Virus record (IMG/VR): IMGVR_UViG_2885028616_000003
Coordinates: 1-64,000 of that record
Direction: 5' to 3' (one strand)
Source: a virus
Taxonomy: Duplodnaviria > Caudoviricetes
Length of the DNA: 64,000 nucleotides
Part shown: in pieces, positions 11,055 to 62,732 of the stretch
Numbering within the stretch: position 1 is the stretch's first letter
How the letters are laid out: each line of letters opens with the position of its first letter
Notes under the pieces: model-generated
Database searches by the model: none
What the model was told of the DNA's origin: nothing
The model's input: only the letters and a program-made list of their open reading frames with translations
Program-made: the position numbers and the translations under genes

Positions 11055-11856
11055 GGTCGGTCTCCTCTTCCTGGTGTTCGGCGGCCGTGGTCGTCGACGT
11101 CCCGTCGAGGGCCGCCTTCAGGCGGTGCGCGACGTCGCCGATGAGCGCGGCGGAGGACAGCAGAGCGGTCGCCTGGGCGTCGTTGGTGGCCTCGTCGTGC
11201 CGGCGCTTCAGATCCTTTTCGCGGGCCCGAAGGTCAGCAGCCAGCGCTCGCGCCCGCTTCACCTGCTCGCGTGCGGCCTTCCGTTCGGCTGTGACTATCT
11301 CGACCTGCTCGCGCGCCTGGTCCCGCTCGGCCTCGGCCTGCTCGATCGCCTGAAGGGCACGGTTCGCCCGGTCATCGGCCGCGGCCCGCTCCCGGGCACC
11401 CTGCACGACGAGGTCCTGAGCTTCCTTGCGGGACCGCTTGACCGCCTCGATGCTGTCGCGGAGCTGCTCCCATGAGCGGGCGCCGGGCGTGGCGTACAGC
11501 GCATCGCCGATCATCTGCCGCGCCTCGTCCAGCTCGGTCTCGGCGTCTCTTCCGGCTTGCTGCGCGCGCTCCAGCTTCGTGCGTGTCTCGTCGAGGAGGT
11601 CGCGGCGCACGCCGGCCTGCGTCCGGGCCTCGTCCCGCTCGGCGCGGACCGTGGCCAGTTGCGCGCGCATGTTGGCGGTGCCCTCCCGCATCGCAGCCCA
11701 CGCCTCGTTCAGCCTGGCGCGGAGCTGCTCGACCTCGGCGCGGGCGTCCAGCAGGTGGCGGCGCATCTCGATCGCCTTGGGCTGAAGCAGCGCCGGGTGC
11801 ATGTCGAGCAGTTCACGGATGCGCTGCTCGTCCCCGGGTGTCATGGAGTCAGCCAC
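11047..11856 (-). CDS. Coiled-coil phage protein
   Basis: AERDEAR heptad-like repeats. Confidence 0.7.
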   Translation of the reverse strand: MADSMTPGDEQRIRELLDMHPALLQPKAIEMRRHLLDARAEVEQLRARLNEAWAAMREGTANMRAQLATVRAERDEARTQAGVRRDLLDETRTKLERAQQAGRDAETELDEARQMIGDALYATPGARSWEQLRDSIEAVKRSRKEAQDLVVQGARERAAADDRANRALQAIEQAEAERDQAREQVEIVTAERKAAREQVKRARALAADLRAREKDLKRRHDEATNDAQATALLSSAALIGDVAHRLKAALDGTSTTTAAEHQEEETDHG

Positions 11857-12935: not shown

Positions 12936-13345
12936 TGGGCACCGCCCGCGGTCTCGCGCAACAGCGTCGCGGCGTCACGGTCCGGGTCGAGGCGCTTGGC
13001 TACCTCGGTGGCGAACCGGCGGTACTGCTCGCGCTGGTTCGCGGGCATCTCACCCAACGGGAACGTGGCCGCGTCGTAGCCGAGGGTGGCCTTACGGGCG
13101 TCCCAGAGGATCTCGGCGAGCCGCTCTTCCTCGGTGATGCTGTCGGGCCAGGTGACGGTGACGGTCGCCGCGCACGCTAGGTCGTGGACTTTGCGCATCA
13201 GGTCCTGCGTGGCGTCGAAGTCGAGGTCGAACGGCTCCCAGTCCTCCTCGAACATCTCGCCGACGCCCACGAAGTCGAGTTCGGAGGCGGCCTCGACGAC
13301 GTACTTGCGGGCCCAGTCTTTGAGCTGCTCGTCGGTGTACTTCAC
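12932..13345 (-). CDS. Phage hypothetical protein
   Basis: GTG start with RBS GGAG. Confidence 0.65.
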   Translation of the reverse strand: MKYTDEQLKDWARKYVVEAASELDFVGVGEMFEEDWEPFDLDFDATQDLMRKVHDLACAATVTVTWPDSITEEERLAEILWDARKATLGYDAATFPLGEMPANQREQYRRFATEVAKRLDPDRDAATLLRETAGGAQ

Positions 13346-14069: not shown

Positions 14070-15014
14070 TCAGGGGATGTGAGCGCGAGCCTCGCGCTTC
14101 CGGCTCTGGTTGATCGCGGCGAGCTGCTCGCGCAGCGCGAGGAGCGCCTCGGCGGTATCGGCGCCATCCTCAGCGGCGGTGTCGGCCGGGTCGGTGTCGT
14201 CCTGGACGGCGGCGAGGATCGGCGGCTGCACCGGCGGCGCCGGACGCTCCGGCTCAGGCTCCGCGGCCGGCCCCGGGACGGCGGCGAGCGGCGGCGCGGA
14301 AGCCTCCTGGACGGCGGCGACGATGTCCGCGAGGTCGCTCTTGATCTCGCCCGAGACGGGATCCCGCTGCATGCTCTGCAGGTACCGGACGGGGTAGCGG
14401 ACCGGTTCGGGTGCGCGGGACTCCGCGATCTCCCACACGGTGACGGCCTCGGTGTCAGTCAGTCCGTACTCGGCCCGCAGCCACCGTACGGCCTCGCGCA
14501 CCCGCGCCGACTGACTGATCCTTCTGTCTCCTCGTGGCTCCTTCTCTATAGGTGCACGATCTTCGTGCACCTCCTGCACGTTTTTCGTGCGCCTCTGTGC
14601 ACGATTTTCGTCACCCTCAGGTGCACGGTTTTCGTCGGCGGCCTCCTCGCCCGAACCGCTATCTGCACGGTTTTCGTGCACCTGGGACCGCCGGAGGTTG
14701 AGCGCCCACTTCTGGCGACGACCCCCGCGAGCTGCCCGCACCAGACAGATCGCGCCCCGCTTGGCGAGCTGATTCGTCGCATCCCGGACGGCCTTGAAAG
14801 CGGCCTGCCGCGCTAGGGCAGCCTCGGGGCTCTCGTCATCCTCGTCGGGCAACTCGCGGCCCAGCGCGGCGACCAGGTCCGCTCGCCCGCCCCAGAACAT
14901 CGGGGGGTCATCGGCGTCCAGCGAGACCAGCGCCATGTACACGAGCAGCCGGAACGCGGTGTTCGGCAGCGTCGACCACTGGTCGTAGACAGCTTTCACG
15001 TTCTGCGCTCCCAT
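14070..15014 (-). CDS. Replication initiator (N-terminal wHTH, lambda-O-like layout)
   Basis: AFRLLVYMAL N-terminal HTH, central low-complexity linker containing iterons, PVRY C-terminal domain. Confidence 0.7.
   Translation of the reverse strand: MGAQNVKAVYDQWSTLPNTAFRLLVYMALVSLDADDPPMFWGGRADLVAALGRELPDEDDESPEAALARQAAFKAVRDATNQLAKRGAICLVRAARGGRRQKWALNLRRSQVHENRADSGSGEEAADENRAPEGDENRAQRRTKNVQEVHEDRAPIEKEPRGDRRISQSARVREAVRWLRAEYGLTDTEAVTVWEIAESRAPEPVRYPVRYLQSMQRDPVSGEIKSDLADIVAAVQEASAPPLAAVPGPAAEPEPERPAPPVQPPILAAVQDDTDPADTAAEDGADTAEALLALREQLAAINQSRKREARAHIP
14552..14681. repeat. Five iterons, putative replication origin
   Basis: TGCACGNT(T/C)TTCGT at 14553, 14575, 14598, 14622, 14664. Confidence 0.75.
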
Positions 15015-15139
15015 CAGGTGCGCGGCCTCTCGGGCATGCGGGAACTCCCCAGATCCAGGCATGGGTGATCACACGACCGCCCTGGGGGAGGCGTCGTTCA
15101 ACGGTGAATGTGGAGCCGCTGGGGGGCAGCGGCGGGCGG

Positions 15140-15553
15140 CTAGTCGGCCTGCGTGTCTCCGGCCGCGCGCTCGCCCTCAGCGAGCATCTGATCGACGCGC
15201 TTGGTCGCTGCGTCGAGGCGCGGCTTGTGGATGGTCTCGGTGACCAGCTTCCGCTCAGCGGTGATGCAGGGGCCTTGCTTGACGCCGCACTCGTCACACG
15301 GGATCGCGTAGGCGGTGGCGCGGATCGTTTCCTGTCGCCTGTACCAGGCGTCGATGACCTGCTTCATCAGCTCGGGGTCGGGACGCTCGGGGAGCTTGGC
15401 TCCGGGCAGCCTCAGCCACCACGCGAACAGCTGTTCGATCACGCCGTTGCGGCTCGTCTGCATCTGGCTGGTGGGCTGCTCGGCCACGTCCCAGGCCAGG
15501 TCCTCAATGGCCACGGAGCGGTACCTGCGCCCTGAGCGAAGCTGACGGGCCAC
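15140..15553 (-). CDS. Putative Kor-like repressor with C-terminal Zn finger
   Basis: RHH-like RSVAIEDLAW...SRNGVIEQLFAW; CDEC..GPC...H; divergent from transfer operon. Confidence 0.6.
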   Translation of the reverse strand: MARQLRSGRRYRSVAIEDLAWDVAEQPTSQMQTSRNGVIEQLFAWWLRLPGAKLPERPDPELMKQVIDAWYRRQETIRATAYAIPCDECGVKQGPCITAERKLVTETIHKPRLDAATKRVDQMLAEGERAAGDTQAD

Positions 15554-15568
15554 GCGCGGAAGTCTTCC

Positions 15569-15672
15569 AGGTACATGGGCACCTTTCAACATTGGACTCC
15601 TCTCGCCGAAGCGCCTTGAGGTACAGGGGTACCTTTCGCTATCGTGACACACGATAGGTACATGGGTACCTT
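15569..15672. promoter_or_regulatory. Three operators AGGTAC-N4-G(T/C)ACCT plus a second palindrome
   Basis: Copies at 15569, 15619, 15656; CTATCGTG-ACA-CACGATAG at 15639-15657. Confidence 0.8.
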
Positions 15673-15703
15673 TGACGCAAGCCCGAAGGTCAGGAGATCG
15701 CAA

Positions 15704-15862
15704 ATGCTCCGAAGATCCCCGCTGGTCGCCCTGTTCATCGCCGCGAGCACGCTCACCTGCCCCGCCAGCGCGCTCATCCTCACCGCGATCGTCGTCGCGC
15801 CCATCGCCGGCGCCCAGCTCGCCCGAGCGCTCACCAACGCGCGGGAGACCGCCGATGCGTAA
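15704..15862 (+). CDS. Small membrane protein
   Basis: RBS AGGAG; hydrophobic. Confidence 0.6.
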   Translation: MLRRSPLVALFIAASTLTCPASALILTAIVVAPIAGAQLARALTNARETADA

Positions 15863-18903: not shown

Positions 18904-20580
18904 ATGTACGACCCTACGAGCGACCTGCCCGCCTGGGCGCCCTACGCGACGGCCGGAGTCGGCCTCACCGCCACCCTCGCCATCGGCATGTGGATCGGCG
19001 GCCGCCGGCACCGCGCACACCGCACCGGGCGCCGCCGCCGCGCCGAGGACGCGCTCACCTTCGTCGCCGCGGCCCTCGCCACCGCCGTCACCAGCCAAGG
19101 CATGTGGCGCGTCTTCGAGCACCGCCTCCACATGCCCCTCGAACTACGCGTCGTGACGTTCGCGTTCCTCGAGATCGCGATGCTCACCTGCGGGATCCGC
19201 GCCCGCTCGAACATCGCCGACCCCGAGATCGGCAAAGCCGGGCCCGAGGGCGCAGCGGTCTGGGCGCTCGCCGGGTTCTCAGGGTTCGTCGCGGCCACCG
19301 ACTCCGGGAGCTGGCACGAGGCCCTCATCCGCCTCGCCGCTCCCCTGGCCGCCGCGTGGCTGTGGGAACGAGGGCTGCACGTCCAGCGGACCCAGAACGT
19401 CTGGTCCCGGCGCCGCCGCTGGTTCTCCTCGATCCACTGGCGGATCACCCCGGAGCGGATCCTCGTCGCGCTCGGCGCGGCCGAGCCGCAGGACCGCACC
19501 GCCGCCGAGGTCGACGTCGACCGGCACATCACCCGCCTCGCAGTCGCCAACGCCCGGCTCACCCTCGCGCGCCGCCCCGGCCGCAAACTCCCAGGGACCC
19601 TGAGGCGCGCCAACGCACGAGCCCAGAGAGCGTGGCTCGCCGCGGTCAAGCACACCCCGCTCGCGCACGACCCCGAACTCCTGGCCCGGGTCGAAGCCGA
19701 GACCGCGCTGCTCGTCCACGCGACCGCCTACGCCGACCTGCCGCACCGGCCGTCCTGGATGCCCGCCCCCGCCGCCCGCCCCCAGATCTGCCTCGGCGCC
19801 CACGCCGGGCCAGGCCTGATCGCGCTCCGCGTGCTGGAGCGCGGCAAGCGCCGCATCCTGCACCCGGAGCCGGCCGAGCGGCCCTCCGCGACCACGACGA
19901 GTCTGCTCGCCCGGATCCAGCAGCGCCGCACCGACCGGCGCCTCGGCATACGGCCCGGGTCCGACTCCACCCCGCACGCCCGTACGGACGAGACCCGTAC
20001 GGTTCCCCGTACCGACAATGCCCCCCAGCACCGTACGGACCGCACCGTACGGGCCACGGCACCCACCGGTACGGCCATCCATACGGGACCGCGTACGGCG
20101 CCCCGGCTCAACCCGTACGGCACCGTCCTGGTGATGCCCGTACGGACCACACCGTCCGGGCTCGCCCTGCCCCAGCCCTCCACCCGTACGGGCCGTACGG
20201 TGCCGGGACGTACGGACCCGGACCGTACGAACGGAACCGCCCGGACGCCGGCGCAGGCCCCGTCTCCCCCGCGGCCCGAACCCACCGCCGACCAGGCCGA
20301 CGAGCAGGACGGCAGGAAGCCCGACCGTACGGACGACGCACCTGAGCCGCCCCGCGACAACCGGCGCAAGAGCAAAGAGCACTGGGCCCGGGCCCTCGCG
20401 GAGGAGATCCGTACGGCCACCGAGCAGAGCCGTACGTGGGAGCCCGACTATCCCGCCCTCATGGCCCGTACGCGCTACGGCAAGAGCTGGTGCGAGAAGC
20501 GCGTACGGGAAGCCAAGGCCCTCGCTGCCCAGCCCCGTACGGCCGCCGACCCGCGCGCCCGTACGGCCATCGGCACCTGA
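18904..20580 (+). CDS. Spd-like (DUF2637-type) membrane protein with C-terminal HTH
   Basis: Several N-terminal TM helices, P/R/T-rich linker, C-terminal YPALMARTRYGKSWCEKRVREA; directly upstream of TraB. Confidence 0.65.
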   Translation: MYDPTSDLPAWAPYATAGVGLTATLAIGMWIGGRRHRAHRTGRRRRAEDALTFVAAALATAVTSQGMWRVFEHRLHMPLELRVVTFAFLEIAMLTCGIRARSNIADPEIGKAGPEGAAVWALAGFSGFVAATDSGSWHEALIRLAAPLAAAWLWERGLHVQRTQNVWSRRRRWFSSIHWRITPERILVALGAAEPQDRTAAEVDVDRHITRLAVANARLTLARRPGRKLPGTLRRANARAQRAWLAAVKHTPLAHDPELLARVEAETALLVHATAYADLPHRPSWMPAPAARPQICLGAHAGPGLIALRVLERGKRRILHPEPAERPSATTTSLLARIQQRRTDRRLGIRPGSDSTPHARTDETRTVPRTDNAPQHRTDRTVRATAPTGTAIHTGPRTAPRLNPYGTVLVMPVRTTPSGLALPQPSTRTGRTVPGRTDPDRTNGTARTPAQAPSPPRPEPTADQADEQDGRKPDRTDDAPEPPRDNRRKSKEHWARALAEEIRTATEQSRTWEPDYPALMARTRYGKSWCEKRVREAKALAAQPRTAADPRARTAIGT

Positions 20581-20630
20581 CCCGTACCGCCCAGCACGGC
20601 CATACGGCCCCGTCCGTACGAGCCCGTACC
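19980..20630. repeat. Dense CCGTACGG palindrome array
   Basis: About 12 perfect copies (hand count) and a similar number of 1-mismatch copies, irregular spacing, extending past the stop codon. Confidence 0.9.
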
Positions 20631-20651
20631 CCGCACACCATGGAGACCACA

Positions 20652-22754
20652 GTGACCGTCGACCTGGACAAGGACTCGCAGCCCGCAGCCCAGGCCCCCT
20701 CTACCGACCCGCCTACCGCTCCCCTACCGGACGGCGACGGCAGCCACGACGACGGCGAGGTCCTCGAGGGAGTCATCGTCCGCCCGAACCTGCCGGCGCT
20801 GCTGCCCGACTGGGTCCGGGACTGGGAGATCGCCAAGGCCCGCGCCGACGTCCGTGCCCGCCGCGCCGCCTACAAGGCCGCGTTCCACCTGCTCAGGACC
20901 CACCGCTACGCGTGGCGTTTCGCCTGGGGAGGCGGCGTCGGCTGGTACCGCGGCGGCTGCCGGCTCGTCGACTGGCTCACCCTCGGCGAATCCCGCGACC
21001 TGCGCCTGCACGCGGCCGGGCAAACCGACGCCAAGGAGTACCTCGCCCTACTCCACGCCCGCAACGACCACCTCAGGGTCCGCAGCATCGTCGCAGGTGG
21101 CACGGGTCTCGCCGTCGCGGCCGGGGTGGCGGCGGAGGCCTGGCTGCTCCCCCACTCCGTCCTGTGGGTCGAGGGCGCGCTGGCGTGGGCGGTCGCGGCC
21201 TGGCACGGCGGCCCCGAGCCCGACGTCGGCCTCCTCGACGAGCCCGAGGTCCCCGTTCGCCTGGACCTGTCCGCCGAGCACCTCAACGCCGCGTTCCGCG
21301 CCATCGGCATCCTCAAAGGCAAGGACGACGACGAGGACGCCCCCCGCCTGGTCCTGGTCCAGCCGCCCATGCGGGACTCCTCCCGGTCCTGGTCAGCGGT
21401 GGTGGATCTCCCCCGCGGCACCGGCAAATCCGCCAACGACGTCCTGGCCCGCCGCGACCGGCTCGCCGCCGAACTCGGCGTCGACGAGATCCAGCTCGAC
21501 ATCCGCCGCGTCCGAGCCGTCCACAAGGGCCACGCCGGGCGCCTGTCGATCTGGATGTGCGACGAAGACCCCTACCTCCAGGACAAGCCCACCCAGTCGC
21601 CGCTGGTCAAAGCCGAATCGTTCAACGTGTGGAACCCCGTGCCCTTCGGCCGGGACGCCCGCGGCGACCGCGTGGACCTGCCGGTGATGTGGCAGTCGAT
21701 GTTCTTCGGAGGGCTCCCCCGCCGCGGGAAGACCGGCAGCCAGCGCGACGTCGTCGCCGCCGGCGTCCTGGACGCCTCCGTCCGGCACCGCCTCGCCGAC
21801 GGCAAGGGCGGCGCCGACTGGAAACCCATGCGCCGCCTGGCCTACCGGTACGTCCTGGGCGCCGAGGCCGACGCCGTCACCGCCCTGGAAGACATGCTGG
21901 ACGAGGCCATCGCCGACATGGAAGCCGCGTTCAAGAAGCTCAACGCGCTCCCCCTGCACCTGGTCCCCGATGGGAAGCTCACCCCGCAGATCGTGGAGCG
22001 GTACGGGTTCGAGCTGAACTGGATCACCATCGATGAGCTGCAGGAATACCTGTCGGCGATCACCGACAACAAGCGCCGCGAGGCGCTGATCGAGCGGCTG
22101 TGCCGCCTCGCGCGCCGCGGACCCGCCGCCGGGTTCTTCAGCAACTTCGCCTCCCAGCGCCCCGACGCCACGTCCGTCCCGACCCGGCTGCGGGAGATCG
22201 TGTCCTACCGGTACTGCACCCAGGTCATCGACAAGACCAGCTCCGACATGGTCCTGGGTGACGGGAAGGCCAAGCAGGGCGCTGACGCCTCGATCCTGTC
22301 CGAGGAGCACGTCGGTGTCGGGGTGCTCGTCACCGGCCCCGCCTCGTTCACCACCGTCCTGGCGGACTACATCACGCTCCCGGAGTTCGTCGACATCTGT
22401 CAACGCGGCCGCGAGTTGCGGATCAAGGCGCAGACACTGGCCGGCGACGCCACCGACGAAGTCCTGTCCGGTGAGCGCGAAGACGTCATCCCGCAGGTCC
22501 TCGCGGACGCCCTTACCGTCATGCGGCATGTCGACCGGATGCACACCACCGACCTGCTCAACCGGCTCATCAACATCGATGAGGGCTACTACGGCGACTG
22601 GTCCGCTGACACGCTGGCGACCGAACTCGCCGCTGCCCGTGTTGAGCGTTCGACCGTCCAGGTGAAGATCAGCGGCGTCAACCGCAACGGCTGGCACAAG
22701 TCGGATCTGCTGGCCGCCGCCGATCAGTTCGGAGGCGCCCGGCACCGTTCCTGA
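20652..22754 (+). CDS. traB: FtsK/SpoIIIE-family conjugative DNA translocase (TraB-like)
   Basis: TM pair, Walker A GGLPRRGKT, DGKGG.D, Walker B ITIDELQ, SQRP, C-terminal wHTH-like region. Confidence 0.85.
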   Translation: MTVDLDKDSQPAAQAPSTDPPTAPLPDGDGSHDDGEVLEGVIVRPNLPALLPDWVRDWEIAKARADVRARRAAYKAAFHLLRTHRYAWRFAWGGGVGWYRGGCRLVDWLTLGESRDLRLHAAGQTDAKEYLALLHARNDHLRVRSIVAGGTGLAVAAGVAAEAWLLPHSVLWVEGALAWAVAAWHGGPEPDVGLLDEPEVPVRLDLSAEHLNAAFRAIGILKGKDDDEDAPRLVLVQPPMRDSSRSWSAVVDLPRGTGKSANDVLARRDRLAAELGVDEIQLDIRRVRAVHKGHAGRLSIWMCDEDPYLQDKPTQSPLVKAESFNVWNPVPFGRDARGDRVDLPVMWQSMFFGGLPRRGKTGSQRDVVAAGVLDASVRHRLADGKGGADWKPMRRLAYRYVLGAEADAVTALEDMLDEAIADMEAAFKKLNALPLHLVPDGKLTPQIVERYGFELNWITIDELQEYLSAITDNKRREALIERLCRLARRGPAAGFFSNFASQRPDATSVPTRLREIVSYRYCTQVIDKTSSDMVLGDGKAKQGADASILSEEHVGVGVLVTGPASFTTVLADYITLPEFVDICQRGRELRIKAQTLAGDATDEVLSGEREDVIPQVLADALTVMRHVDRMHTTDLLNRLINIDEGYYGDWSADTLATELAAARVERSTVQVKISGVNRNGWHKSDLLAAADQFGGARHRS

Positions 22755-22806
22755 ACCCGCCTCCGAGGCGGCCAGACCGGTCTTCTCGCAGGACCCACCT
22801 AAACCG

Positions 22807-22897
22807 CCTACCTCGCAGGTCAGAGCACCTGCCAGGGGTTCCTACCGCGCGCCTACCGCGGGAGGTGGTTCCCGGTCAGAGGCCATATGCCGGTAGG
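22807..22897. repeat. clt-like CCTACC(G) repeats downstream of traB
   Basis: Copies at 22807, 22841, 22852 and inverted at 22891; three more at 20701-20729. Confidence 0.55.
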
Positions 22898-22950
22898 CAC
22901 CCCAAACCCGACGCATGACCGCCAGGTCACATCACGTAGAGGAGAGCATC

Positions 22951-47167: not shown

Positions 47168-50100
47168 CTATCCCCGCCGGCCGATGCGCAGGCTCTGCGC
47201 CTGCGCCATCTGCATCGACTTGAAAGCGGTCCGGACCTCGCGGGACAGGGCGGCGGCGGTGATCCCGTCGAAGTGCGCGTGGTACTCGTCGCCGCCGCCC
47301 GCGGTCGAGGCGGAGTCGGACAGCTCCAGCGGCGCCGCGGCCGCCGAGAGCGCCATGCGCAGGGAGTCCTCGTGCGGGTACACCGCTTCCCCGCCGCGGA
47401 AGTCGACCAGTTCGGGGCCGCGCTCACCGACCCAGGCGAGGCCTCGGCGGGCGTGGTCGGTCCCTTGCGCGTACCAGCCGGTGCGCTGGGAGTGCGCCCA
47501 CGCCCCCGCCGGGCTGCCGTAGCGGTGCTTGATGTAGTCCAGGCCCCACCGGATCTGGGTGGCCCAATTCGTTCGCCAGTCGGACCCGAAGCTGGCCATC
47601 TTGCCTGGCGGGAGGGCCTGCGGGATGCCGTACGCGCCCGACGAGGGGTTGCGGGCGTTCCACCGCCAGCCCGACTCCCGCTCCCACAGCCGGTTCAAAG
47701 GGGCGAACTGCGCCGCGGACCAGCCGAGGTCACCGAGCTGCGCCTGCGCGAACGCCTTCGGGGTGCCGCCCCCGTACCACGACCCGCCCTTGCCTGCGAT
47801 GTGCCGGTAGGTTCCGCCGGACCGCCACCCGGCGTAGCGGACAACGTCGCCGGTGTGGGGGGCGTGGATGAGGGCGTGGTCACCGCCCATCCCGGTCACC
47901 ATCATCACGTGGCCGCGGTGCGGGAAATAGAGGTCGCCCGGCATCGCCGCGGACCTGGTCGTCGCGGAGCCGTAGGCGATCTGGTCGTAGGTGACGCGGG
48001 GGATGTTCACCCCGGCCGCCTGCCACGCCCGCATGGTCAGGCCTGAGCAGTCCCAGGAGTCTGGGCCCGTGGCGCCCCACACGTATGGCTCACCGAGCTG
48101 GGCTTTGGCGAAAGCGACGGCCTTGGCGCCGCTGCCGTACGCCCCCGACAGCAGCGTGGTGAGGATGCCCGCACCGATCGCGGCGTGCCCGGAGGCATAC
48201 CCCAGCATCGACGCCAGCCCGACCGCGTTGCCCTCCCGGGCCTTGTTGATGGTGGCGGGCGGGTCACCCCGGTAGTGGTAGTCCTTCTTGAAGGTCGATC
48301 CGATCAGCCCGCCGCCGGCGAACGCAGGCAGCGTGTCCCGCCGGGGTCCGGGGAGGCCGCCGCCGGCGAACGCACCGCCAGCGCCCGGTACCGGGCCGCC
48401 GCCGGTGGTGTAGCCCTGCCCCTTGTAGATCGTGCCCTTGTTGCCCTCGTCGTTGATCGCGGTCAGCAGCGGCAGATACCTGCTGGTGGCGGGGGCGTTG
48501 ATGACCATCTCGCCCGCGCTGATGCGGGTGACCTTGTCGTCGGCGCGGGGCCCGCCACCACCTGCGATGACGCCGCCGCCGGCGTTGCGCAGGCTCGGCG
48601 CGAGGAGGTCGGCAAGGCCTGGGATCTTCGCCAGGTTCCCCAGGCCTTTCATGGAGAACTTGCCCTTGGCGTTCACGCTGACGTCGGTGCTGGTCTTCTT
48701 GGGGATCTTCACCAGCTGGTCGACGTACTTCTCCGCAGCCTTCCGGGACCCCAGGAACCGGGTGGCGAGGTCGATGAGCTGCTCGCGTTGCCCCTTCAGC
48801 TTCTTGACGTTCGCGTCGGTGACGCGGTTGTTGGTCACCAGGTCGTCGGAGTAGCTGTTCAGGACGCGGGCGCCCTGGAGGATGGTCTGCCGGTTGTTCA
48901 GCGCCGCTTGGGAGTTGCCCCAGAACGCGCGGCCGTTGGTGTCCAGCGCGGTCCGCCCGGCGGCGAGCGCGCTGTTGAAGTCGATGACTTCTTGCTGGTC
49001 GGCGATGAACCGGTTGGCGTTGGTGAGCAGCGCCTGGTTCTGCTGGCGGATCTTCTCGGTGAAGATCTGCGTCTGGAACGCGCCGGACCCAACCAACGCG
49101 CTGTACTGCGGGAACAGCGACTTGATCTTCTCGATGGACAGGTTGCTGAGGTCCAGTTGCGCCGCCATCCGGGAGAACGAGGTCGCGGCCGCGTCGGCCT
49201 GCCCGTTCTGCGCCATCTGCGTCAGCGTCGTGTCGAGCTGCTTGAACTTGTTGACCGCCTCCGAAAGCGGCGTGTTGTAGGCGCCGAAGGAGATGACGTG
49301 GAAGAACTCCGCGGCGGGGTGGTCGATCCACCTCTGATTCCACGACGGATTCGCGATGGACTCCGCGGCGGCGCGGAACTCCTCCAGGTTCGTCTTCCCC
49401 GAAAGCGCCCCGGCCTTGAACTGGTCGAAGAACGCGCCACCGAACTTCCCGGTCGTGGCGAGGGTCTGCATGGACCGGGTCAGCGACTCGGTGGACTGCA
49501 CGGTGCCGTTCTGGGCGTGCTGGAGCGCGTTCATCGCGTAGCCCATGCCGACCACGACACCGACCACGGCACCCAGGCGCGCCAGGCCCATGAGCGCGAT
49601 GCGGGTGGTCACGGCCGACCCGGACACGCCCATCATGTAGCCGCCGGTCGCCCGCAGGATCACCCCGAGCCGCAGCAGCCCCCCGGACGCGACCCCGGCA
49701 GCCGCGCCCGTGCCGGTCAACCCGGCGATCAACGAGGTGAATCCCAGGACCCGGACGGCCTTGGACACCAGGAACGCGGCCGCAGCAAGCTGGATCAGGC
49801 CGGGCGCGGTCCGCGCCATCGCCGCGAGCCCGTCGGCGAGGATCCGGATCACGGCAAGCTGCACGGCCGCGAGGGGGGCCAAGGCTTGCCCGACGTCGAT
49901 CAGACCCGAGGCCAGCGACCCGATCGTGTGGATCACGTCGGGGCCGGTCTGCTGCACGTACCCCATAAACCGGATGAACCCGGAGGACCCGGCGAGGCTG
50001 GTGCCCCACCGCTCGAACCGCACCGTCAGGGCGTCGACCGCGCCGAGCAGCAGGTTCGTGTACGGCAGGAACGCCTCGAAGATCCCGCCGACGCCGGTGA

Positions 50101-51916
50101 GGGTGTGCCCGGTGATCGACCCGAACTTCTCGATCGCGCGGGGCGCCTCAATGCTGGTCCGGGCGATGAACCGTGACCAGAACGGCCCGTCCAGCGCGAG
50201 CGCGGCCCGCGTCTCCAGGATCCGCATCGCCGCCGCCGACGACCGGGTCAGCGGGGAGAACTTGTCGAGCTGCATCGTGATGAGGCCGAGCCCGCCGGAC
50301 AGCACCGGCAGGACGTCGGGCTCCAGGTCGTTGACCCACCCCCGGTACTCCTTCCGGAACCGCTGCCAACTGTCCAGCAGCCGGTTCTCGGCGGGGGTGA
50401 GCTTGTCCATGGCGCGCCCCAGCCGCACGGTCGCGGCGGACGCGCCGTCCGCGGCGTGCGCGGACTGGCGCTGCGCGTCGGCCTGCTGCAACGCGGCGAT
50501 ACGGTCCTGGATCTGCTGGGTCCGCACCGCGCGCTGCGCGTCGGCGACCTGCTGCAGCGCGTCCTTCAGCCGCTCCTTCGCGGCGACGACCTCCTGGGTG
50601 CCCTCGACGCCGGCCTTGCGGGCCTTGGCCTCATCGGCGCGGAGCCGGTTGACCAGGATCCGCTGCTCTTTGAGCTGCTGGACCGCCTGGTCGTAGGCGA
50701 GTTTGGCTTCCTTTCGGTCGAGGTCGCGGTCTTTGCGCTGCTGCTGCGCGGCGGCGACCGCCTGCTTGGCCAGGTCGACCGCGAGCTGCGCCTGGTCCTT
50801 GTCGAGCTGGGTGGAGCGGGAGTCGCCGAGGACCTTGGCCTGCTTGGCCTGCGCGGCCGCGAGGCCGACCTGGGCCTTCTGGACGGCGAGGTCGTCCTGC
50901 CGTGTCGACCCGAGCTTCTCCAGTTCCCGCCGTGCCCGCTCGACTGCGAGTTCGTCACCGCGCAGGGACAGACCGGCGTCGATGAGCGAGTTCTGCATGT
51001 CCTGCAGCGACCGCGCGCCGTCCTGCCGGGCGCGGTTGAGATCGGTCTGGGCCTGGCGGGCGGCGGCCTGGGCCTGGGTGACCTGCCGTTCGGCCTGCGC
51101 CATCTGCATGGCCCGCAGCCGCGCCTGCTCGGTGGCGATCGCCGCGGTGTTCAGCGCGACCGCCCGGCCCCGCGTCGAGGTGGCGACCTGGTTGTCGGCG
51201 GTCTTCTGCGCCTGCAGCGCCTCGGAGATCCGGTGGACACCGGGAACCGCGACGGCGAGCATCCCGCCGATCCCGAGCCCGGCGGAGGTCGCGGCCGCGG
51301 CGATCCCGCCGATGCCCGCGGCCAGGGTCGCGCCGAGCGGGATGGACGCCAGCGCGGCCATCTGGATCCCAAGCATCATCAGCGCCGACGACGCCCCAGC
51401 AGTGTTCGCGCCGACCTGCACGTTCACCGACCGGCCGAACAGCCTGTCCGCCTCAGCCCGCAGCGCCAGCAGCCGCGCCATCGCGGCCGCGGTGTCGGCG
51501 TCCACGTTGATCGTGGCGTGGAACGGGCCGAGGTTCTCCAGCCGGCGGCGGACCCGTTCCAGCGACGCCTCGTCCAGCTTCACGCGGACATTGACGTTGG
51601 CGCGCGGCAGGTTCTTCAGCTTCGCTTCAAGCTCGGCCTTGGCGGCGCGCGCGATCTCAGCGCCGATCTTGCGGCCGAGACGCCCCCCGGCGAGCTCCAG
51701 CCGCGGTGTGGCGTCCCGCATCGCCTCCTCGAGGCGCCGCGGCGAGAACCCCGCCTTGGCGCCCTCGGCGATCGCGCGGCCCAGCACCCGGCCCGACGAC
51801 CGGCCGACCCTGTCGAGGGTCGGGTCGAGCCGCCGTTTGATCTCCTGCCCCCACGCCGCAGGATCGATCCGGGGCAGGACATCGATCTTGACTGATCCGC
51901 CGTCGTGCTCCGCCAC
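47168..51916 (-). CDS. Tape measure protein with NlpC/P60 and lytic transglycosylase domains
   Basis: 1582 aa helical; PYVWGA.GP..WDCSGL...H..H; RESGW..ARNPSSGAYGIPQALP. Confidence 0.93.
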   Translation of the reverse strand: MAEHDGGSVKIDVLPRIDPAAWGQEIKRRLDPTLDRVGRSSGRVLGRAIAEGAKAGFSPRRLEEAMRDATPRLELAGGRLGRKIGAEIARAAKAELEAKLKNLPRANVNVRVKLDEASLERVRRRLENLGPFHATINVDADTAAAMARLLALRAEADRLFGRSVNVQVGANTAGASSALMMLGIQMAALASIPLGATLAAGIGGIAAAATSAGLGIGGMLAVAVPGVHRISEALQAQKTADNQVATSTRGRAVALNTAAIATEQARLRAMQMAQAERQVTQAQAAARQAQTDLNRARQDGARSLQDMQNSLIDAGLSLRGDELAVERARRELEKLGSTRQDDLAVQKAQVGLAAAQAKQAKVLGDSRSTQLDKDQAQLAVDLAKQAVAAAQQQRKDRDLDRKEAKLAYDQAVQQLKEQRILVNRLRADEAKARKAGVEGTQEVVAAKERLKDALQQVADAQRAVRTQQIQDRIAALQQADAQRQSAHAADGASAATVRLGRAMDKLTPAENRLLDSWQRFRKEYRGWVNDLEPDVLPVLSGGLGLITMQLDKFSPLTRSSAAAMRILETRAALALDGPFWSRFIARTSIEAPRAIEKFGSITGHTLTGVGGIFEAFLPYTNLLLGAVDALTVRFERWGTSLAGSSGFIRFMGYVQQTGPDVIHTIGSLASGLIDVGQALAPLAAVQLAVIRILADGLAAMARTAPGLIQLAAAAFLVSKAVRVLGFTSLIAGLTGTGAAAGVASGGLLRLGVILRATGGYMMGVSGSAVTTRIALMGLARLGAVVGVVVGMGYAMNALQHAQNGTVQSTESLTRSMQTLATTGKFGGAFFDQFKAGALSGKTNLEEFRAAAESIANPSWNQRWIDHPAAEFFHVISFGAYNTPLSEAVNKFKQLDTTLTQMAQNGQADAAATSFSRMAAQLDLSNLSIEKIKSLFPQYSALVGSGAFQTQIFTEKIRQQNQALLTNANRFIADQQEVIDFNSALAAGRTALDTNGRAFWGNSQAALNNRQTILQGARVLNSYSDDLVTNNRVTDANVKKLKGQREQLIDLATRFLGSRKAAEKYVDQLVKIPKKTSTDVSVNAKGKFSMKGLGNLAKIPGLADLLAPSLRNAGGGVIAGGGGPRADDKVTRISAGEMVINAPATSRYLPLLTAINDEGNKGTIYKGQGYTTGGGPVPGAGGAFAGGGLPGPRRDTLPAFAGGGLIGSTFKKDYHYRGDPPATINKAREGNAVGLASMLGYASGHAAIGAGILTTLLSGAYGSGAKAVAFAKAQLGEPYVWGATGPDSWDCSGLTMRAWQAAGVNIPRVTYDQIAYGSATTRSAAMPGDLYFPHRGHVMMVTGMGGDHALIHAPHTGDVVRYAGWRSGGTYRHIAGKGGSWYGGGTPKAFAQAQLGDLGWSAAQFAPLNRLWERESGWRWNARNPSSGAYGIPQALPPGKMASFGSDWRTNWATQIRWGLDYIKHRYGSPAGAWAHSQRTGWYAQGTDHARRGLAWVGERGPELVDFRGGEAVYPHEDSLRMALSAAAAPLELSDSASTAGGGDEYHAHFDGITAAALSREVRTAFKSMQMAQAQSLRIGRRG

Positions 51917-52788: not shown

Positions 52789-53367
52789 TCAGGTGGGAAG
52801 CGGAACCTTCGACACGAACCGCTTCACGGGGGTGCCGCCCACGGTCGGGACCATCGCGGTCATCGTGAGGCCGTACTGGTGCAGGCTGTCGGCCTTGTCC
52901 TCGATGTTGTCCCGTTCGGAGACCTTCGCGCGGGGGACGACGTAGCGGAACTGGCGGCCGGTCTGCTCGTCGATGACGTCGAGGCCGAGCGCGACGTAGA
53001 TCGCGAGGGCGGTCTCGGGGTCGTCGAACTGGACACCGATGTCGTCGCCGGACCCGACGGTGGTCATGTCGGCGATCGGCACCGAGTAGTAGAGGCTCAG
53101 GGCCCGCGCGGTCGTCTGCGTCAGGGTGAGCTTGAAGGTGATCGTCCGCGACTTGGGCTGGATGCGGATCGGGCCGTTGTAGCCCCAGCCGCCGAAGCTC
53201 GTCTCGTCCTCGGCGAGGGCCTCGGTGAGGCCGTCGTCCAGGATGATCCCGGCGTCCTCCCAGCCGGTGCCCCAGGCCGTCGCGATGTCGGTGGGCGGGG
53301 TCACCCCGACCTCACCGAAGTAGGCGTAGCCCTTACCGCCGACTGTGATCTCGTCCGTGTTGGCCAC
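52789..53367 (-). CDS. Major tail protein
   Basis: G...DDGLTE...W...PIR; PRAKVSER; Y.LT; position. Confidence 0.88.
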   Translation of the reverse strand: MANTDEITVGGKGYAYFGEVGVTPPTDIATAWGTGWEDAGIILDDGLTEALAEDETSFGGWGYNGPIRIQPKSRTITFKLTLTQTTARALSLYYSVPIADMTTVGSGDDIGVQFDDPETALAIYVALGLDVIDEQTGRQFRYVVPRAKVSERDNIEDKADSLHQYGLTMTAMVPTVGGTPVKRFVSKVPLPT

Positions 53368-59292: not shown

Positions 59293-60453
59293 TCACGAAC
59301 CGGAACCGTTCGAGGCCACCGAGGACTTCGGGTCCATCAGCGTCCCGCCGAACACATACCGGACCTTGTAGTCGATGCTGTCGGTGCGGAAGTCGCCGTC
59401 CATCGGGTCGACCGCACCGCCACCGACGCGGACGGCGTTCGGGGACTGCATGAACAGTTCCGGGGTCTCGTGCCCGGTGAGGAACCCGATCTCCATCGCC
59501 GGGCGGCCCACGCTCGGGTTGGCGAACAGGTACCAGGCGGTGTTCCCCGAGGTGGAGTCGATGATCGGGAGCCACGGGTCCACGACCAGCTTGACCCTGT
59601 TCCGCATCCAGTTGGTGACGCGGAGCTGGTTGTTGCCGGTGCCGTCGCCGCCGCCAGCCGCGGCGATGATCTCGGTGGCGTTGATGATGTTCAGCGCCGT
59701 GATCTCCAGCGCCGGCGGCACGACCAGGGTGACGGCGTCGATGTAGATCGGGTTGCCGTCCGAGTCCTTCTGCGCGGCGAGGACCCGGAACGCGGTGTTC
59801 AGGCCCTCGATGCCCAGGGCGGGGTTGCCGGTGACCTGGTTGGCGTTGCCGGAGGAGTAGAACGTCGCGTTCGGGCCGCTGCTGGAGGCGAACAGGGTGG
59901 TGAAGAACTTCTCCTCGGAGAACTTCGCGGAGTTGGCGAGCCGGTCGGGCATGTCGCGCAGCGCGTCGAGGTCGTCGTTGATGAAGTCCTCCCACGTGAA
60001 GGGGAGGCGCTTGCCGAACTTCTTGACCGAGTACTCGTACTTGCCGTCGGTGACGGCGGCCGCCGGGTACTCGGTGTTCTGCGGCACCTCGTCCAGGACG
60101 GCCTCGCCGCCGTCGAGGGTGAACCGCTTGACCTTCCTGAAGTCCCGGACGCGGCCGCGGCGGGCGATCTGGTCCCACATCACGTTCCGGTGCTGGTACT
60201 TGGCCAGGAGCTGCCGGTCGAGGATGTCGGCGAACAGGTACTGGAAGTCGCTGGTGGTCATCGCCTCCTGGAGGCGGTCGACCTTCTGGCGGCCGTTGAG
60301 GACGTCGGCGTACAGGCGGCCGGCCTCCAGGAGCGCCCGCTTGTAGTTGGGGTCGTTGCGGCCGCCGCGGACCCGGCGGCCCTCCCGGGCGTACAGGGCG
60401 CGCTCGGAGGCGTCCCTGTGGTTGTAGCTCTCGATCAGGTCGAGGATTTCCAT
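59293..60453 (-). CDS. Major capsid protein (Mu gpT-like)
   Basis: TSDF, VRDF, EY, K.G....TWE.FINDDL, WYL.A.P, FL.G.E.P. Confidence 0.9.
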   Translation of the reverse strand: MEILDLIESYNHRDASERALYAREGRRVRGGRNDPNYKRALLEAGRLYADVLNGRQKVDRLQEAMTTSDFQYLFADILDRQLLAKYQHRNVMWDQIARRGRVRDFRKVKRFTLDGGEAVLDEVPQNTEYPAAAVTDGKYEYSVKKFGKRLPFTWEDFINDDLDALRDMPDRLANSAKFSEEKFFTTLFASSSGPNATFYSSGNANQVTGNPALGIEGLNTAFRVLAAQKDSDGNPIYIDAVTLVVPPALEITALNIINATEIIAAAGGGDGTGNNQLRVTNWMRNRVKLVVDPWLPIIDSTSGNTAWYLFANPSVGRPAMEIGFLTGHETPELFMQSPNAVRVGGGAVDPMDGDFRTDSIDYKVRYVFGGTLMDPKSSVASNGSGS

Positions 60454-60950: not shown

Positions 60951-62732
60951 TCAGCGGCCCGTGGCCGCGATCTTCGCTTCGTCGGCGGTCATGCCGATGT
61001 CCTGGAGCGACTCGGCCAGCGCCTTGTCCAGGTCGCCGTCGCTGTCGCCCGCCGGGGTCGGGTCGGAGGTAAGGCCGCGGGGCAGGCCGTAGCCGCGGGC
61101 CTCGTCCAGCTCGGCCAGGTAGGACTTGTGGTCCTGGATCGCGGTCTTGACGGCCTCGCCGAAGGCGGTCTCGTCGAGGGCGCCGTCGTCGCCGGTCGGG
61201 AGCGTGACGGTGGCCTCGCGCAGGACGCGGGGGTGCGCCTGCGTCGGCAGCCCGGACGTGGCGAGCGACGCCTCGCACAGGGTGCGGGCGCGCACGAGGT
61301 TGTCGCGGGCCTGGTCGCGCTTGCCGGCCTCGGCGAGCGCGGTCTCCAGCGTCTCGATCTTCTGGCCCTGCGACTCGATGAGCTGCGCCGCCTGGTCCAG
61401 GCGGCCGATCGCCTCGTCGAGGCGGGTCTTGGTCGCGGCAGCCTCGTTGAGCGTGCTGAGCTGCTCGTCGCTGATCTCGGGCATCGCGCCCTCCTTCATC
61501 GTCTTGGGCGCGGGCTTGCTGCCCGGCGCGTCCTTGGCCTTGGCCTTCTTGGCCTTCGGGTCGTCCTCGCCCTCACCGTCGGCGGGGGCGTCCTTGCCGG
61601 CATCGCCGGTGTCCTCGTCGTCCTTCTTGGCGAACAGGAAGGGCGGCTTCTTCCCCGCCTCCGACATCGGCTCCTGCCCGCCGTCCTCGTCGGGCGGGAA
61701 GGACCAGGGGCCGCGCTGATACAGCTGCGGCGCGTCCTTCTCCAGCCGGGCGACGAGTGTGCCGAGCGCGTCCCCAAGCGCCGAGGAGAGAGTGATGCGC
61801 TCGTCGCGGGTGAGGCGCCCGTCGCAGTACATGTCGTCGGCGAGGATCGTGAAGGCCGTGTGGGTGCGCGCTTCGATCCGGGCCCCGATCGTGGCGCCGG
61901 CCTCCCGCAGCTCCTCGCGGCTGGGCGGGACGGCCGACTCCTTCGCCGACGACTTCGTCCAGTCGGCGGGGATCAGGTCGCTCTTCCCGAGCGCCTTGGC
62001 GCGCTTGATGATGTGCGCGCGGATCTTGTCGTGGTCGGCGCCGCCGCGACCGACCGCGCGGATCGCGTTGCGGAGGTCCTGCTCGTCGGCGATCGGGTAC
62101 GCGGGGTCACCGTCGGGGTTCTTCATCGCGTGGCCCTTGCCGAGCATGGCCTTCATCTGGGCGGCGTCGTACTTCGCCTCCCACAGCCGCACGGCCTGAG
62201 CATTGGCGTCGGTCTGCTCGCGGGCGGACTCGATCAGCTCCAGCACCCGACCACCCGCTCCAGCGCGGGTGACCCAGTCGACGGAGATGCCCTCGTTCAG
62301 GGACTTCACGATCGGGCCCTCACGCCCTTCGGCCTCACCGTGCTCTGCGACACCCGTGGCCCTGATCGACAGGCCAACGTGTTCGGCGAACGTCGGGTTC
62401 AGCAGTTCCTGCCACTGCGGGAAGACCTGCACGTCCGCGACCAGACCGTTCTCGGCCTCGTCCCAGACGGGGTCGGAGACGAACACGCCTGCCCAGTCCT
62501 TCACTGACCGTTCCGGCCGCTCGGCGGACTCGGTCAGGGTCGGGTGGTCCAGGTATTGCTGGGTGCCTGCAGGCCAGACCTTGGGGCCGTCGCGCTCCAG
62601 TACCTCGGGGCCGTAATAGCCCGATGAGCCCCATCCCGCCCGGATCAGGAGCACTCGGTACCGGCCGGACCCGTCGCCCTTCGGAGTGAGGGTGGCAGTG
62701 GGGAACGCTTCGTTGAGCGTAAGCCGGTCCAT
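60951..62732 (-). CDS. Prohead protease/scaffold fusion
   Basis: GWGSSGYY, YLDHP, GLSI, SVDWVT.AGAGG; coiled-coil C-terminus. Confidence 0.85.
   Translation of the reverse strand: MDRLTLNEAFPTATLTPKGDGSGRYRVLLIRAGWGSSGYYGPEVLERDGPKVWPAGTQQYLDHPTLTESAERPERSVKDWAGVFVSDPVWDEAENGLVADVQVFPQWQELLNPTFAEHVGLSIRATGVAEHGEAEGREGPIVKSLNEGISVDWVTRAGAGGRVLELIESAREQTDANAQAVRLWEAKYDAAQMKAMLGKGHAMKNPDGDPAYPIADEQDLRNAIRAVGRGGADHDKIRAHIIKRAKALGKSDLIPADWTKSSAKESAVPPSREELREAGATIGARIEARTHTAFTILADDMYCDGRLTRDERITLSSALGDALGTLVARLEKDAPQLYQRGPWSFPPDEDGGQEPMSEAGKKPPFLFAKKDDEDTGDAGKDAPADGEGEDDPKAKKAKAKDAPGSKPAPKTMKEGAMPEISDEQLSTLNEAAATKTRLDEAIGRLDQAAQLIESQGQKIETLETALAEAGKRDQARDNLVRARTLCEASLATSGLPTQAHPRVLREATVTLPTGDDGALDETAFGEAVKTAIQDHKSYLAELDEARGYGLPRGLTSDPTPAGDSDGDLDKALAESLQDIGMTADEAKIAATGR

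What the first reader, a model, noticed from the sequence alone, without database searches (positions are those of the whole stretch)
18904..20630. CCGTACGG palindrome array inside the gene of a membrane-anchored HTH protein
Seen: roughly two dozen exact or 1-mismatch copies in about 650 bp. They are read as RT, PYG and VR (all three frames) and continue past the stop codon, so selection looks DNA-level. The protein has N-terminal TM helices and a C-terminal HTH. Known (from memory): pIJ101 SpdA2 binds a short palindrome found in its own coding region. Inference: the gene encodes both a binder and its centromere-like site, tethering the element to the membrane beside TraB for partition or spreading. 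Motif and HTH should co-vary among homologs.
Basis: partly seen in the sequence, partly recalled or inferred. Interest (0 to 1): 0.72.

Follow-up and report, generated by a model that had tools for sequence, protein, structure and literature searches.

The report
Self-encoded docking array of Spd-like protein
A membrane protein gene in an actinomycete DNA-transfer module carries about 25 copies of the palindrome CCGTACGG in its own coding DNA, most likely as landing sites for the protein's own DNA-binding tail, which would hold the mobile element at the membrane transfer machine.

Summary
There are 12 exact and 25 one-mismatch-or-better CCGTACGG sites at 19980-20621, and this is the only such cluster in the 9.5-Mb genome. 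Selection acts on the DNA. 14 of 21 Arg-Thr pairs are coded CGT-ACG, CGT is never used for the other 41 Arg codons, sites occur in all three frames, and some lie past the stop.

The gene (18904-20580) encodes a SpdB-like helical membrane domain, a roughly 185-residue disordered linker that hosts most sites, and a confident three-helix C-terminal domain with a conserved 'W-PDY...SWCEK' motif.

The array follows this domain. All 6 genome loci with the domain carry the array and none of 75 without it do. In 62 metagenome loci the density is 3.5 sites/kb inside the gene against 0.05/kb in the flanks. This holds across different membrane anchors.

The array does not follow the TraB translocase. At least four unrelated translocase DNA-reading domains accompany the same motif, and each translocase has its own clt-like repeat cluster after its gene (here CCTACC, 22806-22900).

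Other family members carry different 8-mers with different C-terminal domains. The scan noted the same thing in two other genomes. I found no description in the literature I could search.

The parts
18904..20580 (+). Gene for a 558-aa Spd-like membrane protein with a C-terminal DNA-binding-type domain (P0001)
   Evidence: ORF and GC3 frame plot. No Pfam, NCBIfam or PHROGs family. 46 homologues share residues about 48-290.
18904..19780 (+). N-terminal helical membrane domain (residues 1 to about 290), SpdB/DUF2637-like by look-alike search only
   Evidence: AF2 helices 12-36, 43-74, 79-105, 114-132 and 137-176, pLDDT about 90. Hydrophobic segments at 13-33, 50-68 and 75-101. Atlas look-alikes score 0.96/0.92 in clusters partly carrying DUF2637, with SpdB_N at 0.83.
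19780..20352 (+). Coding DNA for a disordered linker (residues about 293-483) that hosts most of the sites
   Evidence: pLDDT below 50 for residues 293-332, 351-386, 388-457 and 459-476. The linker is not alignable between homologues.
19980..20630 (.). Array of about 25 CCGTACGG palindromes (12 exact), running through the linker and C-terminal domain codons and past the stop
   Evidence: It is the only such cluster in the genome.
20353..20538 (+). C-terminal three-helix ('SWCEK') domain, residues 484-545, the presumed reader of the array
   Evidence: AF2 pLDDT 94-97, helices 484-507, 516-523 and 527-542. Invariant W512, P514, Y516, R522, T523 and S528-W-C-E-K532. 97 clusters in the 50%-identity library.
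20640..22754 (+). traB: FtsK/SpoIIIE-type dsDNA conjugative translocase
   Evidence: tblastn gives 57% identity to the S. decoyicus plasmid FtsK/SpoIIIE protein and 33% to pSVH1 TraB. PHROG FtsK/SpoIIIE-like hit at 7e-20.
20701..20729 (+). Three CTACCG repeats at 11-12 bp pitch in the traB 5' end: candidate TraB recognition repeats
Evidence: Read.
22806..22900 (.). Candidate clt: three direct and one inverted copy of (G)CCTACC(G) just after the traB stop
   Evidence: It is the only 4-copy cluster in the window (34 copies in 64 kb; Poisson 3e-7 per 100 bp). It has the same position as the pSVH1 clt and the pWTY27 clt (PMC3583192).
23285..24580 (+). Tyrosine integrase (context)
   Evidence: Pfam Phage_integrase, 4e-25.

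Best explanation
The gene encodes a SpdB-like integral membrane protein. Its cytoplasmic tail is a long disordered linker ending in a small helix-turn-helix-type domain. The DNA that codes for the linker, the tail domain and the 50 bp after the stop carries about 25 copies of the 8-bp palindrome CCGTACGG. These are the binding sites of that same tail domain.

Many membrane-anchored copies binding many adjacent sites would hold this stretch of the element at the membrane. The stretch directly abuts traB and its CTACCG repeats, so the DNA would sit next to the TraB pore and the other Spd proteins. This would serve loading for transfer, spreading through the mycelium, or retention of the element.

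Shown here:
- The sites are selected at the DNA level.
- They co-occur with this domain across anchors, translocases and genera.
- They do not track TraB.

Inferred:
- Physical binding.
- Cytoplasmic orientation of the tail, from the positive-inside rule.
- The tethering role.
For: DNA-level selection:
- CGT codes 15 of 21 Arg before Thr and 0 of 41 other Arg, against a background CGT use of 7.7%.
- Sites occur in three frames and after the stop.
- The same codon bias is seen in 5 homologous loci from four other genera.

Co-occurrence with the domain:
- 6 of 6 genome loci with the domain carry the array; 0 of 75 without it do.
- In 62 distinct metagenome genes with the domain there are 236 sites in 66.9 kb, against 11 in 225 kb of flanks.
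- Across 95 library clusters, RT dipeptides number 743 against 230 expected, with the reversed TR control at 159.
- Only 12 of the 95 share this N-terminal anchor; some have DUF2637 anchors.
- On the N-domain tree the class needs at least 3 placements.
- The only protein shared by the array loci is this one.

Not TraB:
- The arrays sit beside at least 4 kinds of translocase wHTH.
- L012's wHTH resembles those of L033 and L038, which lack the motif.
- Separate clt-like clusters follow each translocase gene and co-vary with its wHTH.

Generality:
- 19 of 81 family gene tails hold an 8-mer repeated 7 or more times, against 4 of 886 control windows.
- Motifs differ by C-terminal class.
- The homologous L021 domain (z 7.7) has helix TWCGDRI and motif CGCGTCCA.

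Precedents:
- SpdA2 binds palindromes in its own gene (PMC4170104).
- SpdA was proposed as the DNA-to-apparatus interface (PMC4447253).
Against: - There are no binding data.
- The HTH assignment rests on a three-helix AF2 model with only weak fold matches (Foldseek E of 4 or more; Z of 4.2 or less to FapR/PurR/GntR-type domains).
- The array and the domain codons are physically linked, so part of the co-occurrence is co-inheritance.
- Some complete genes with the domain have 0-1 sites (L135, L143).
- The largest family class ('WKLE' tail, 36 loci) has no array, so an array is not obligatory for these proteins.
- 8 bp is short for a classical dimeric HTH operator.
Confidence: 0.68

Rival explanations
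1. The array is bound by the tail domain, but its job is regulatory. It would act as a membrane-tethered repressor or roadblock that throttles read-through into the potentially lethal traB gene, or autoregulates the spd operon.
For: The array ends 10-60 bp before the traB start and covers the intergenic gap. In 5 of 6 genome loci the sites continue past the stop. An earlier scan note reports a non-coding CGTACG array directly upstream of a tra promoter in another genome (e1-5931933; unchecked).
Against: 10-25 sites spread over 500-900 bp is far more than operators need. In L011, L016, L018 and L012 the translocase gene lies about 2 kb and 2-3 genes downstream of the array.
Confidence: 0.14
2. 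The array is the element's clt: repeated 8-bp TraB recognition sequences read by the wHTH domain of TraB.
For: It consists of 8-bp repeats at irregular spacing next to traB, as in known clt loci (PMC4170104 introduction; pSVH1 control). No other large array exists in the element.
Against: The same motif accompanies translocases with unrelated C-terminal wHTH domains. The L011 and L018 translocases are 86% identical but differ in the recognition helix, yet share CCGTACGG. L033 and L038 share L012's wHTH type without the motif. The closest TraB (57% identity) sits on a plasmid with no CCGTACGG. Each translocase has its own small repeat cluster at the canonical place after its stop codon, including this window.
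Confidence: 0.06
3. The sites are read by some other factor, either host-encoded or encoded elsewhere on the element, and merely sit in a tolerant linker.
For: Binding is untested, and a disordered linker is a permissive place for any DNA signal.
Against: No other protein is shared by the array-bearing loci. The motif is not enriched elsewhere in the genome. Different family members carry different motifs that change with their own tail domain.
Confidence: 0.08
4. The RT-rich linker is selected at the protein level (for example as kinase sites), or the array is a slippage-generated minisatellite.
For: RT dipeptides are enriched three-fold in the protein family.
Against: The rare CGT codon is used only before ACG. 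Sites occur in the Val-Arg and Pro-Tyr-Gly frames and in non-coding DNA. Flanks and spacings are not repeated. Non-palindromic motifs in relatives occur on both strands.
Confidence: 0.02

Closest known systems
SpdA2 / sps of Streptomyces lividans plasmid pIJ101 (Thoma et al. 2014, PMC4170104)
   Same: A conjugative-element protein whose palindromic binding sites lie inside or next to its own gene and impose an amino-acid motif on it (SRDD/E there, RT here). It belongs to the Spd/TraB transfer context. SpdA interacts with SpdB2, SpdB3, Spd79 and TraB (PMC4447253).
   Different: SpdA2 is a 14.7-kDa soluble protein with an N-terminal DNA-binding region and 2-3 copies of a 12-bp palindrome. Here there is a 558-aa membrane protein with a C-terminal domain and about 25 copies of an 8-bp palindrome. 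The domain profile finds nothing in pSVH1, which encodes a SpdA.
TraB / clt (TRS repeats) of pSVH1, pWTY27, pJV1
   Same: Element-specific 7-9 bp repeats at irregular spacing, on either strand, read by a membrane-bound protein of the dsDNA transfer machine.
   Different: A clt has 4-9 copies in 50-175 bp at or after the 3' end of the translocase gene and tracks the TraB wHTH. This array is several times larger, lies in the upstream gene, and tracks that gene's own tail.
SpdB2 of pSVH1 (Tiffert 2007; Thoma 2015, PMC4447253)
   Same: An oligomeric multi-pass membrane protein encoded in the spd operon just upstream of traB. Its cytoplasmic C-terminal domain binds dsDNA and contacts TraB.
   Different: SpdB2 binding was reported as non-specific, and no sequence similarity is detectable (hhalign probability 0.3%).
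Noc/NBS and RacA/ram of Bacillus subtilis (from general knowledge)
   Same: Sequence-specific DNA binders that, through many dispersed or clustered sites, fasten DNA to the membrane or cell pole.
   Different: Those are chromosomal systems with peripheral membrane association or a partner protein, they are not homologous, and their sites are not written into the binder's own gene.

Membership tests
SpdA2/sps system | SpdA-type protein with a conserved N-terminal DNA-binding region | tested here: not met
   P0001 is a 558-aa membrane protein with the conserved small domain at the C terminus. The A6 domain profile finds no ORF in pSVH1, which encodes spdA. pIJ101 SpdA2 itself was not compared.
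SpdA2/sps system | 12-bp sps palindrome in 1-3 copies, coded as SRDD/E | tested here: not met
   The motif here is 8-bp CCGTACGG in about 25 copies, coded mostly as RT. sps is as described in PMC4170104.
SpdA2/sps system | Binding sites lie within or beside the binder's own gene | tested here: met
   The array lies at 19980-20630, inside and just after gene 18904-20580.
SpdA2/sps system | Specific binding of the protein to the palindrome | not testable with these tools
   Needs EMSA or ChIP.
TraB clt / TRS | Repeat motif co-varies with the translocase C-terminal wHTH | tested here: not met
   The same motif occurs with at least 4 wHTH kinds, and similar wHTH domains occur without the motif.
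TraB clt / TRS | Small cluster at or after the 3' end of the translocase gene | tested here: not met
   The array is upstream of traB. A different cluster (CCTACC x4, 22806-22900) occupies the canonical place, as in pSVH1.
SpdB2 / SpdB_N / DUF2637 membrane proteins | Sequence or profile match | tested here: inconclusive
   There is no Pfam hit even at E of 10, and no similarity to pSVH1 SpdB2. However, the Atlas nearest clusters (0.96, 0.92) partly carry DUF2637, with SpdB_N at 0.83. One homologue is named DUF2637 by UniRef.
SpdB2 / SpdB_N / DUF2637 membrane proteins | Multi-pass membrane protein encoded in the operon upstream of traB | tested here: met
   (helices, hydropathy). Gene order is; compare the pSVH1 map.
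Helix-turn-helix DNA-binding domains | Three-helix core with a short second helix, tight turn and recognition helix | tested here: inconclusive
   The AF2 domain has pLDDT 91-94 over helices 12-28, 37-44 and 48-63 of the 79-aa piece. The best fold matches are weak: GntR/AraR/NanR DNA-binding domains at Foldseek E 4-8, and FapR and PurR at Z 4.2, rmsd 2.3-2.5. There is no Pfam or PDB sequence match.

The most novel reading that the evidence does not exclude
Actinomycete dsDNA conjugation has a second, modular cis/trans specificity system besides TraB/clt. SpdB-like membrane proteins carry interchangeable DNA-reading heads, and each head's cognate 8-mer array is written into the disordered-linker codons of its own gene. 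Head and address therefore travel as one recombination unit. The system decides which DNA is held at the transfer and spreading apparatus. It is also used by prophage-borne transfer modules.
Probability: 0.4. Interest if true: 0.82.

Novelty: new variant of a known kind. Interest (0 to 1): 0.72.

Why it matters
Streptomyces-type conjugation moves double-stranded DNA with a single FtsK-like pump. How the Spd proteins handle DNA during spreading is an open question. SpdB2 is reported to bind DNA non-specifically, and the role of SpdA is debated.

This finding gives a concrete, testable case: a SpdB-like protein with sequence-specific sites, a defined 8-bp word, a defined roughly 60-residue domain, and natural specificity variants to swap.

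It also shows coding DNA for a disordered linker carrying a dense DNA-level signal. This matters for interpreting 'RT-rich' low-complexity proteins.

Finally, it offers a bioinformatic way to tell clt repeats from Spd arrays in unannotated integrative elements, for which no clt has been described (PMC9513070).

Tried and rejected
- **Family searches for P0001.** Pfam, NCBIfam and PHROGs give no family. The C-terminal domain has no Pfam or PDB sequence match.
- **Similarity to pSVH1 SpdB2.** hhalign and BLASTP find nothing.
- **Fold searches.** Searches with the full model and with the domain model gave no significant match.
- **Sequenced phages and plasmids.** tblastn of the domain finds no match.
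- **Element ends.** There are no tRNA genes and no direct repeat of 20 bp or more flanking the module. An 18-bp repeat at 11728/26352 was not pursued.
- **clt reading.** Rejected; see the rival explanations.
- **Protein-level RT selection and slippage.** Rejected on codon and frame evidence.
- **Profile search of other tail classes.** Only the six 'SWCEK' loci are found. By local alignment only L021 is significantly similar, so recognition-helix co-variation within one homologous domain rests on a single case.
- **Literature.** Searches for the motif together with Streptomyces found only unrelated uses. Vogelmann 2011 is not held.

Full report
**Observation**

The window is 71-72% G+C actinomycete DNA. 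It lies at 642-706 kb of a 9.53-Mb single-contig genome.

- Exact CCGTACGG occurs 12 times between 19980 and 20566, against 1.6 expected for the whole window.
- There are 23 GTAC cores at 19982-20629.
- 25 sites with at most one mismatch lie at 19980-20621, against 9 in the remaining 15 kb around them.
- Genome-wide the word is not enriched: 322 copies, against 321 for the reversed control. This is the only cluster of more than three copies, and the only CGTACG cluster of five or more.

The ORF 18904-20580 is supported by third-position G+C of 0.92-0.96. This dips to 0.79-0.86 exactly where the rare CGT codons accumulate.

**Selection acts on the DNA**

Seventeen sites are read CGT-ACG (Arg-Thr). 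The rest are read Val-Arg or Pro-Tyr-Gly, and three or four lie after the stop.

- In neighbouring genes CGT is 7.7% of Arg codons and ACG is 14% of Thr codons.
- In the gene's tail, 15 of 21 Arg codons before Thr are CGT, and 0 of 41 other Arg codons are.
- Shuffling synonymous codons within the region gives a mean of 3.0 CGTACG (maximum 9 in 2000 shuffles), against 18 observed.
- The conserved unit is the 8-bp palindrome; its flanks are not conserved.

**The protein**

No Pfam, NCBIfam or PHROGs family matches. AlphaFold2 with 46 homologues gives three parts:

| Residues | Prediction |
|---|---|
| 12 to about 280 | Confident helices |
| 293-476 | Disordered, pLDDT below 50 |
| 484-542 | Three helices, pLDDT 94-97 |

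Three to five of the N-terminal helices are hydrophobic. Most sites lie in the linker codons.

The basic loops after helix 1 and after the last membrane helix suggest a cytoplasmic tail. This is an inference from the positive-inside rule.

The N-terminal domain's nearest Atlas clusters partly carry DUF2637, and more distantly SpdB_N. That is a lead only. There is no detectable similarity to pSVH1 SpdB2.

The tail domain has invariant W-x-P-D-Y, R-T and S-W-C-E-K. Its fold matches to GntR, AraR, FapR and PurR DNA-binding domains are weak. I treat 'HTH' as likely but not shown.

**Context**

- Downstream lies a TraB-type FtsK/SpoIIIE translocase at 20640-22754. It is 57% identical to one on a Streptomyces decoyicus plasmid and 33% identical to pSVH1 TraB.
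- Beyond it is a tyrosine integrase.
- Upstream are small Spd-like ORFs and a Nudix gene.
- A siphophage virion module occupies about 38-64 kb.

**Relatives**

A scan of one genome per species returned 80 loci encoding the N-terminal domain, mostly from Streptosporangiales.

Five of these have the same tail domain: L011, L012 (two copies of the domain), L016, L018 and L048. All five have CCGTACGG arrays at the same place, with the same CGT-ACG codon bias. In four of the five the sites run past the stop. The 75 loci with other tails have at most two CGTACG there.

On a quick tree of the N-terminal domain, the six 'SWCEK' loci need at least three separate placements. Caveats are that the window's branch is long and the careful tree search did not finish.

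Searching the tail domain alone against 1.8 billion representatives gave 97 clusters.

- Only 12 of 95 share this N-terminal domain.
- Some carry DUF2637 anchors.
- RT dipeptides number 743, against 230 expected and 159 for TR.

A metagenome scan with the tail profile gave 62 distinct genes. CCGTACGG density is 3.53 per kb in gene plus 200 bp, against 0.049 per kb in the flanks (236 against 11 sites). Translocase genes lie downstream in the longer contigs.

Close relatives show site turnover, with some sites conserved in place and others gained or lost through indels.

**Is it the clt of TraB? No.**

1. The only protein shared by the array loci is the membrane protein itself.
2. The translocases beside the arrays are of two very distant kinds, which align only over Walker A, Walker B and the TQR motif. 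They carry at least four different C-terminal winged-helix domains.
   - The L011 and L018 translocases are 86% identical overall but only 51% identical in the last 90 residues.
   - L012's domain resembles those of L033 and L038, which lack the motif.
   - L008, L009 and L013 have L011-type translocases, other tails on the membrane protein, and no CGTACG at all in 14 kb.
3. Each translocase has its own small repeat cluster immediately after its stop codon, and that cluster co-varies with its winged helix.

| Loci | Repeat after the translocase stop |
|---|---|
| L011, L016 | AACTGTGCC |
| L018 | AACTGTCC, four direct and three inverted |
| L012, L033, L038 | CGTCACAG |
| L048 | (G)TCTACC |
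| This window | (G)CCTACC(G), three direct and one inverted, at 22806-22900 |

The window's cluster is the only such cluster in 64 kb. Three more CTACCG copies lie at 20701-20729 (lead from note e1-5865177).

This is the position of the experimentally defined clt of pSVH1. I confirmed that as five GACCCGGA copies right after its traB. It is also the position of the pWTY27 clt (PMC3583192).

The closest TraB relative sits on a plasmid without any CCGTACGG.

**Generality**

In the last kilobase of the 81 family genes, 19 have some non-trivial 8-mer repeated seven or more times, against 4 of 886 control windows. One of those four controls is a clt-like cluster.

The words differ with the tail class, and non-palindromic words occur on both strands.

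| Tail class or locus | Repeated word |
|---|---|
| 'RTAYRYIEQAGL' tails | CGTGWCACG |
| L052 | GCGACCGGTCGC |
| L023, L035 | GGGGACGA |
| L019, L037 | ACCGGACA |
| L021 | CGCGTCCA |

L021's tail is significantly similar to the window's (z 7.7), but its last helix reads TWCGDRI instead of SWCEKRV. The most numerous class ('WKLE', 36 loci) has no array.

**Mechanism**

I commit to self-recognition. The membrane-anchored protein's tail binds the array written in and just after its own gene. Many copies on many sites would hold this DNA at the membrane, and this DNA abuts the TraB recognition repeats.

The precedent is SpdA2/sps of pIJ101 (PMC4170104). Its authors later proposed that SpdA links the DNA substrate to the TraB-Spd apparatus (PMC4447253). 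Here, anchor and reader are in one polypeptide.

A regulatory roadblock role is the main alternative for what the binding achieves.

**Novelty**

I found no description of this domain, motif or arrangement in the literature I could search.

Earlier notes of this scan report the same thing in two other genomes (e1-5849729, e1-5931933). Those are unchecked AI notes, not independent evidence.

I file it as a new variant of a known kind: a mobile-element DNA binder with self-encoded sites.

Noticed in passing
window 20701-20729 and 22806-22900: CTACCG/CCTACC repeats flank traB, with three at 11-12 bp pitch in its 5' end and three direct plus one inverted just after its stop. This is a candidate clt. 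The related TraB of L048 has (G)TCTACC repeats at the same place (L048:8255-8340).
   Followed up: partly
L011:12391-13091, L016:12263-12963, L018:12619-12745, L012/L033/L038 after their translocase stops: A distant FtsK-like translocase of about 780 aa, with no Pfam hit, has clt-like 8-mer clusters right after its gene. These clusters change with its C-terminal winged helix (AACTGTGCC, AACTGTCC, CGTCACAG). This could be used to predict clt loci in Streptosporangiales elements.
   Followed up: partly
window 14550-14700: There are four to five copies of AGGTGCACGA (CGTGCAC x5 within 300 bp) inside or beside the leftward gene 14070-15062. They are possibly iterons or operators.
   Followed up: no
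window 15500-15720: Six AGGTAC/GTACCT hexamers lie within 200 bp, in the gap between the leftward genes and the rightward transfer operon. They are probably operators.
   Followed up: no
window 38000-64000: A siphophage virion module lies on the minus strand: tape measure 47168-51916, major tail 52789-53367, capsid/protease 59293-60453 and 60951-62732. The transfer module may therefore belong to, or sit beside, a prophage.
   Followed up: partly
NZ_CP107886.1 (L001): The 29,140-bp Streptomyces decoyicus plasmid record repeats itself at an offset of 14,570 bp, so it is a head-to-tail dimer or an assembly duplication. It also has seven CACGTGAC copies near record position 12,950.
   Followed up: no
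L039:3208-3900: There are 28 copies of CGAGCCCG within 700 bp, far from the family gene. This is probably a tandem repeat.
   Followed up: no
window 20466-20473 and homologous loci: The invariant Arg-Thr inside the tail domain's second helix is itself coded CGTACG in 16 of 40 distinct loci, against about 1% expected. The array therefore recruits even conserved codons.
   Followed up: yes
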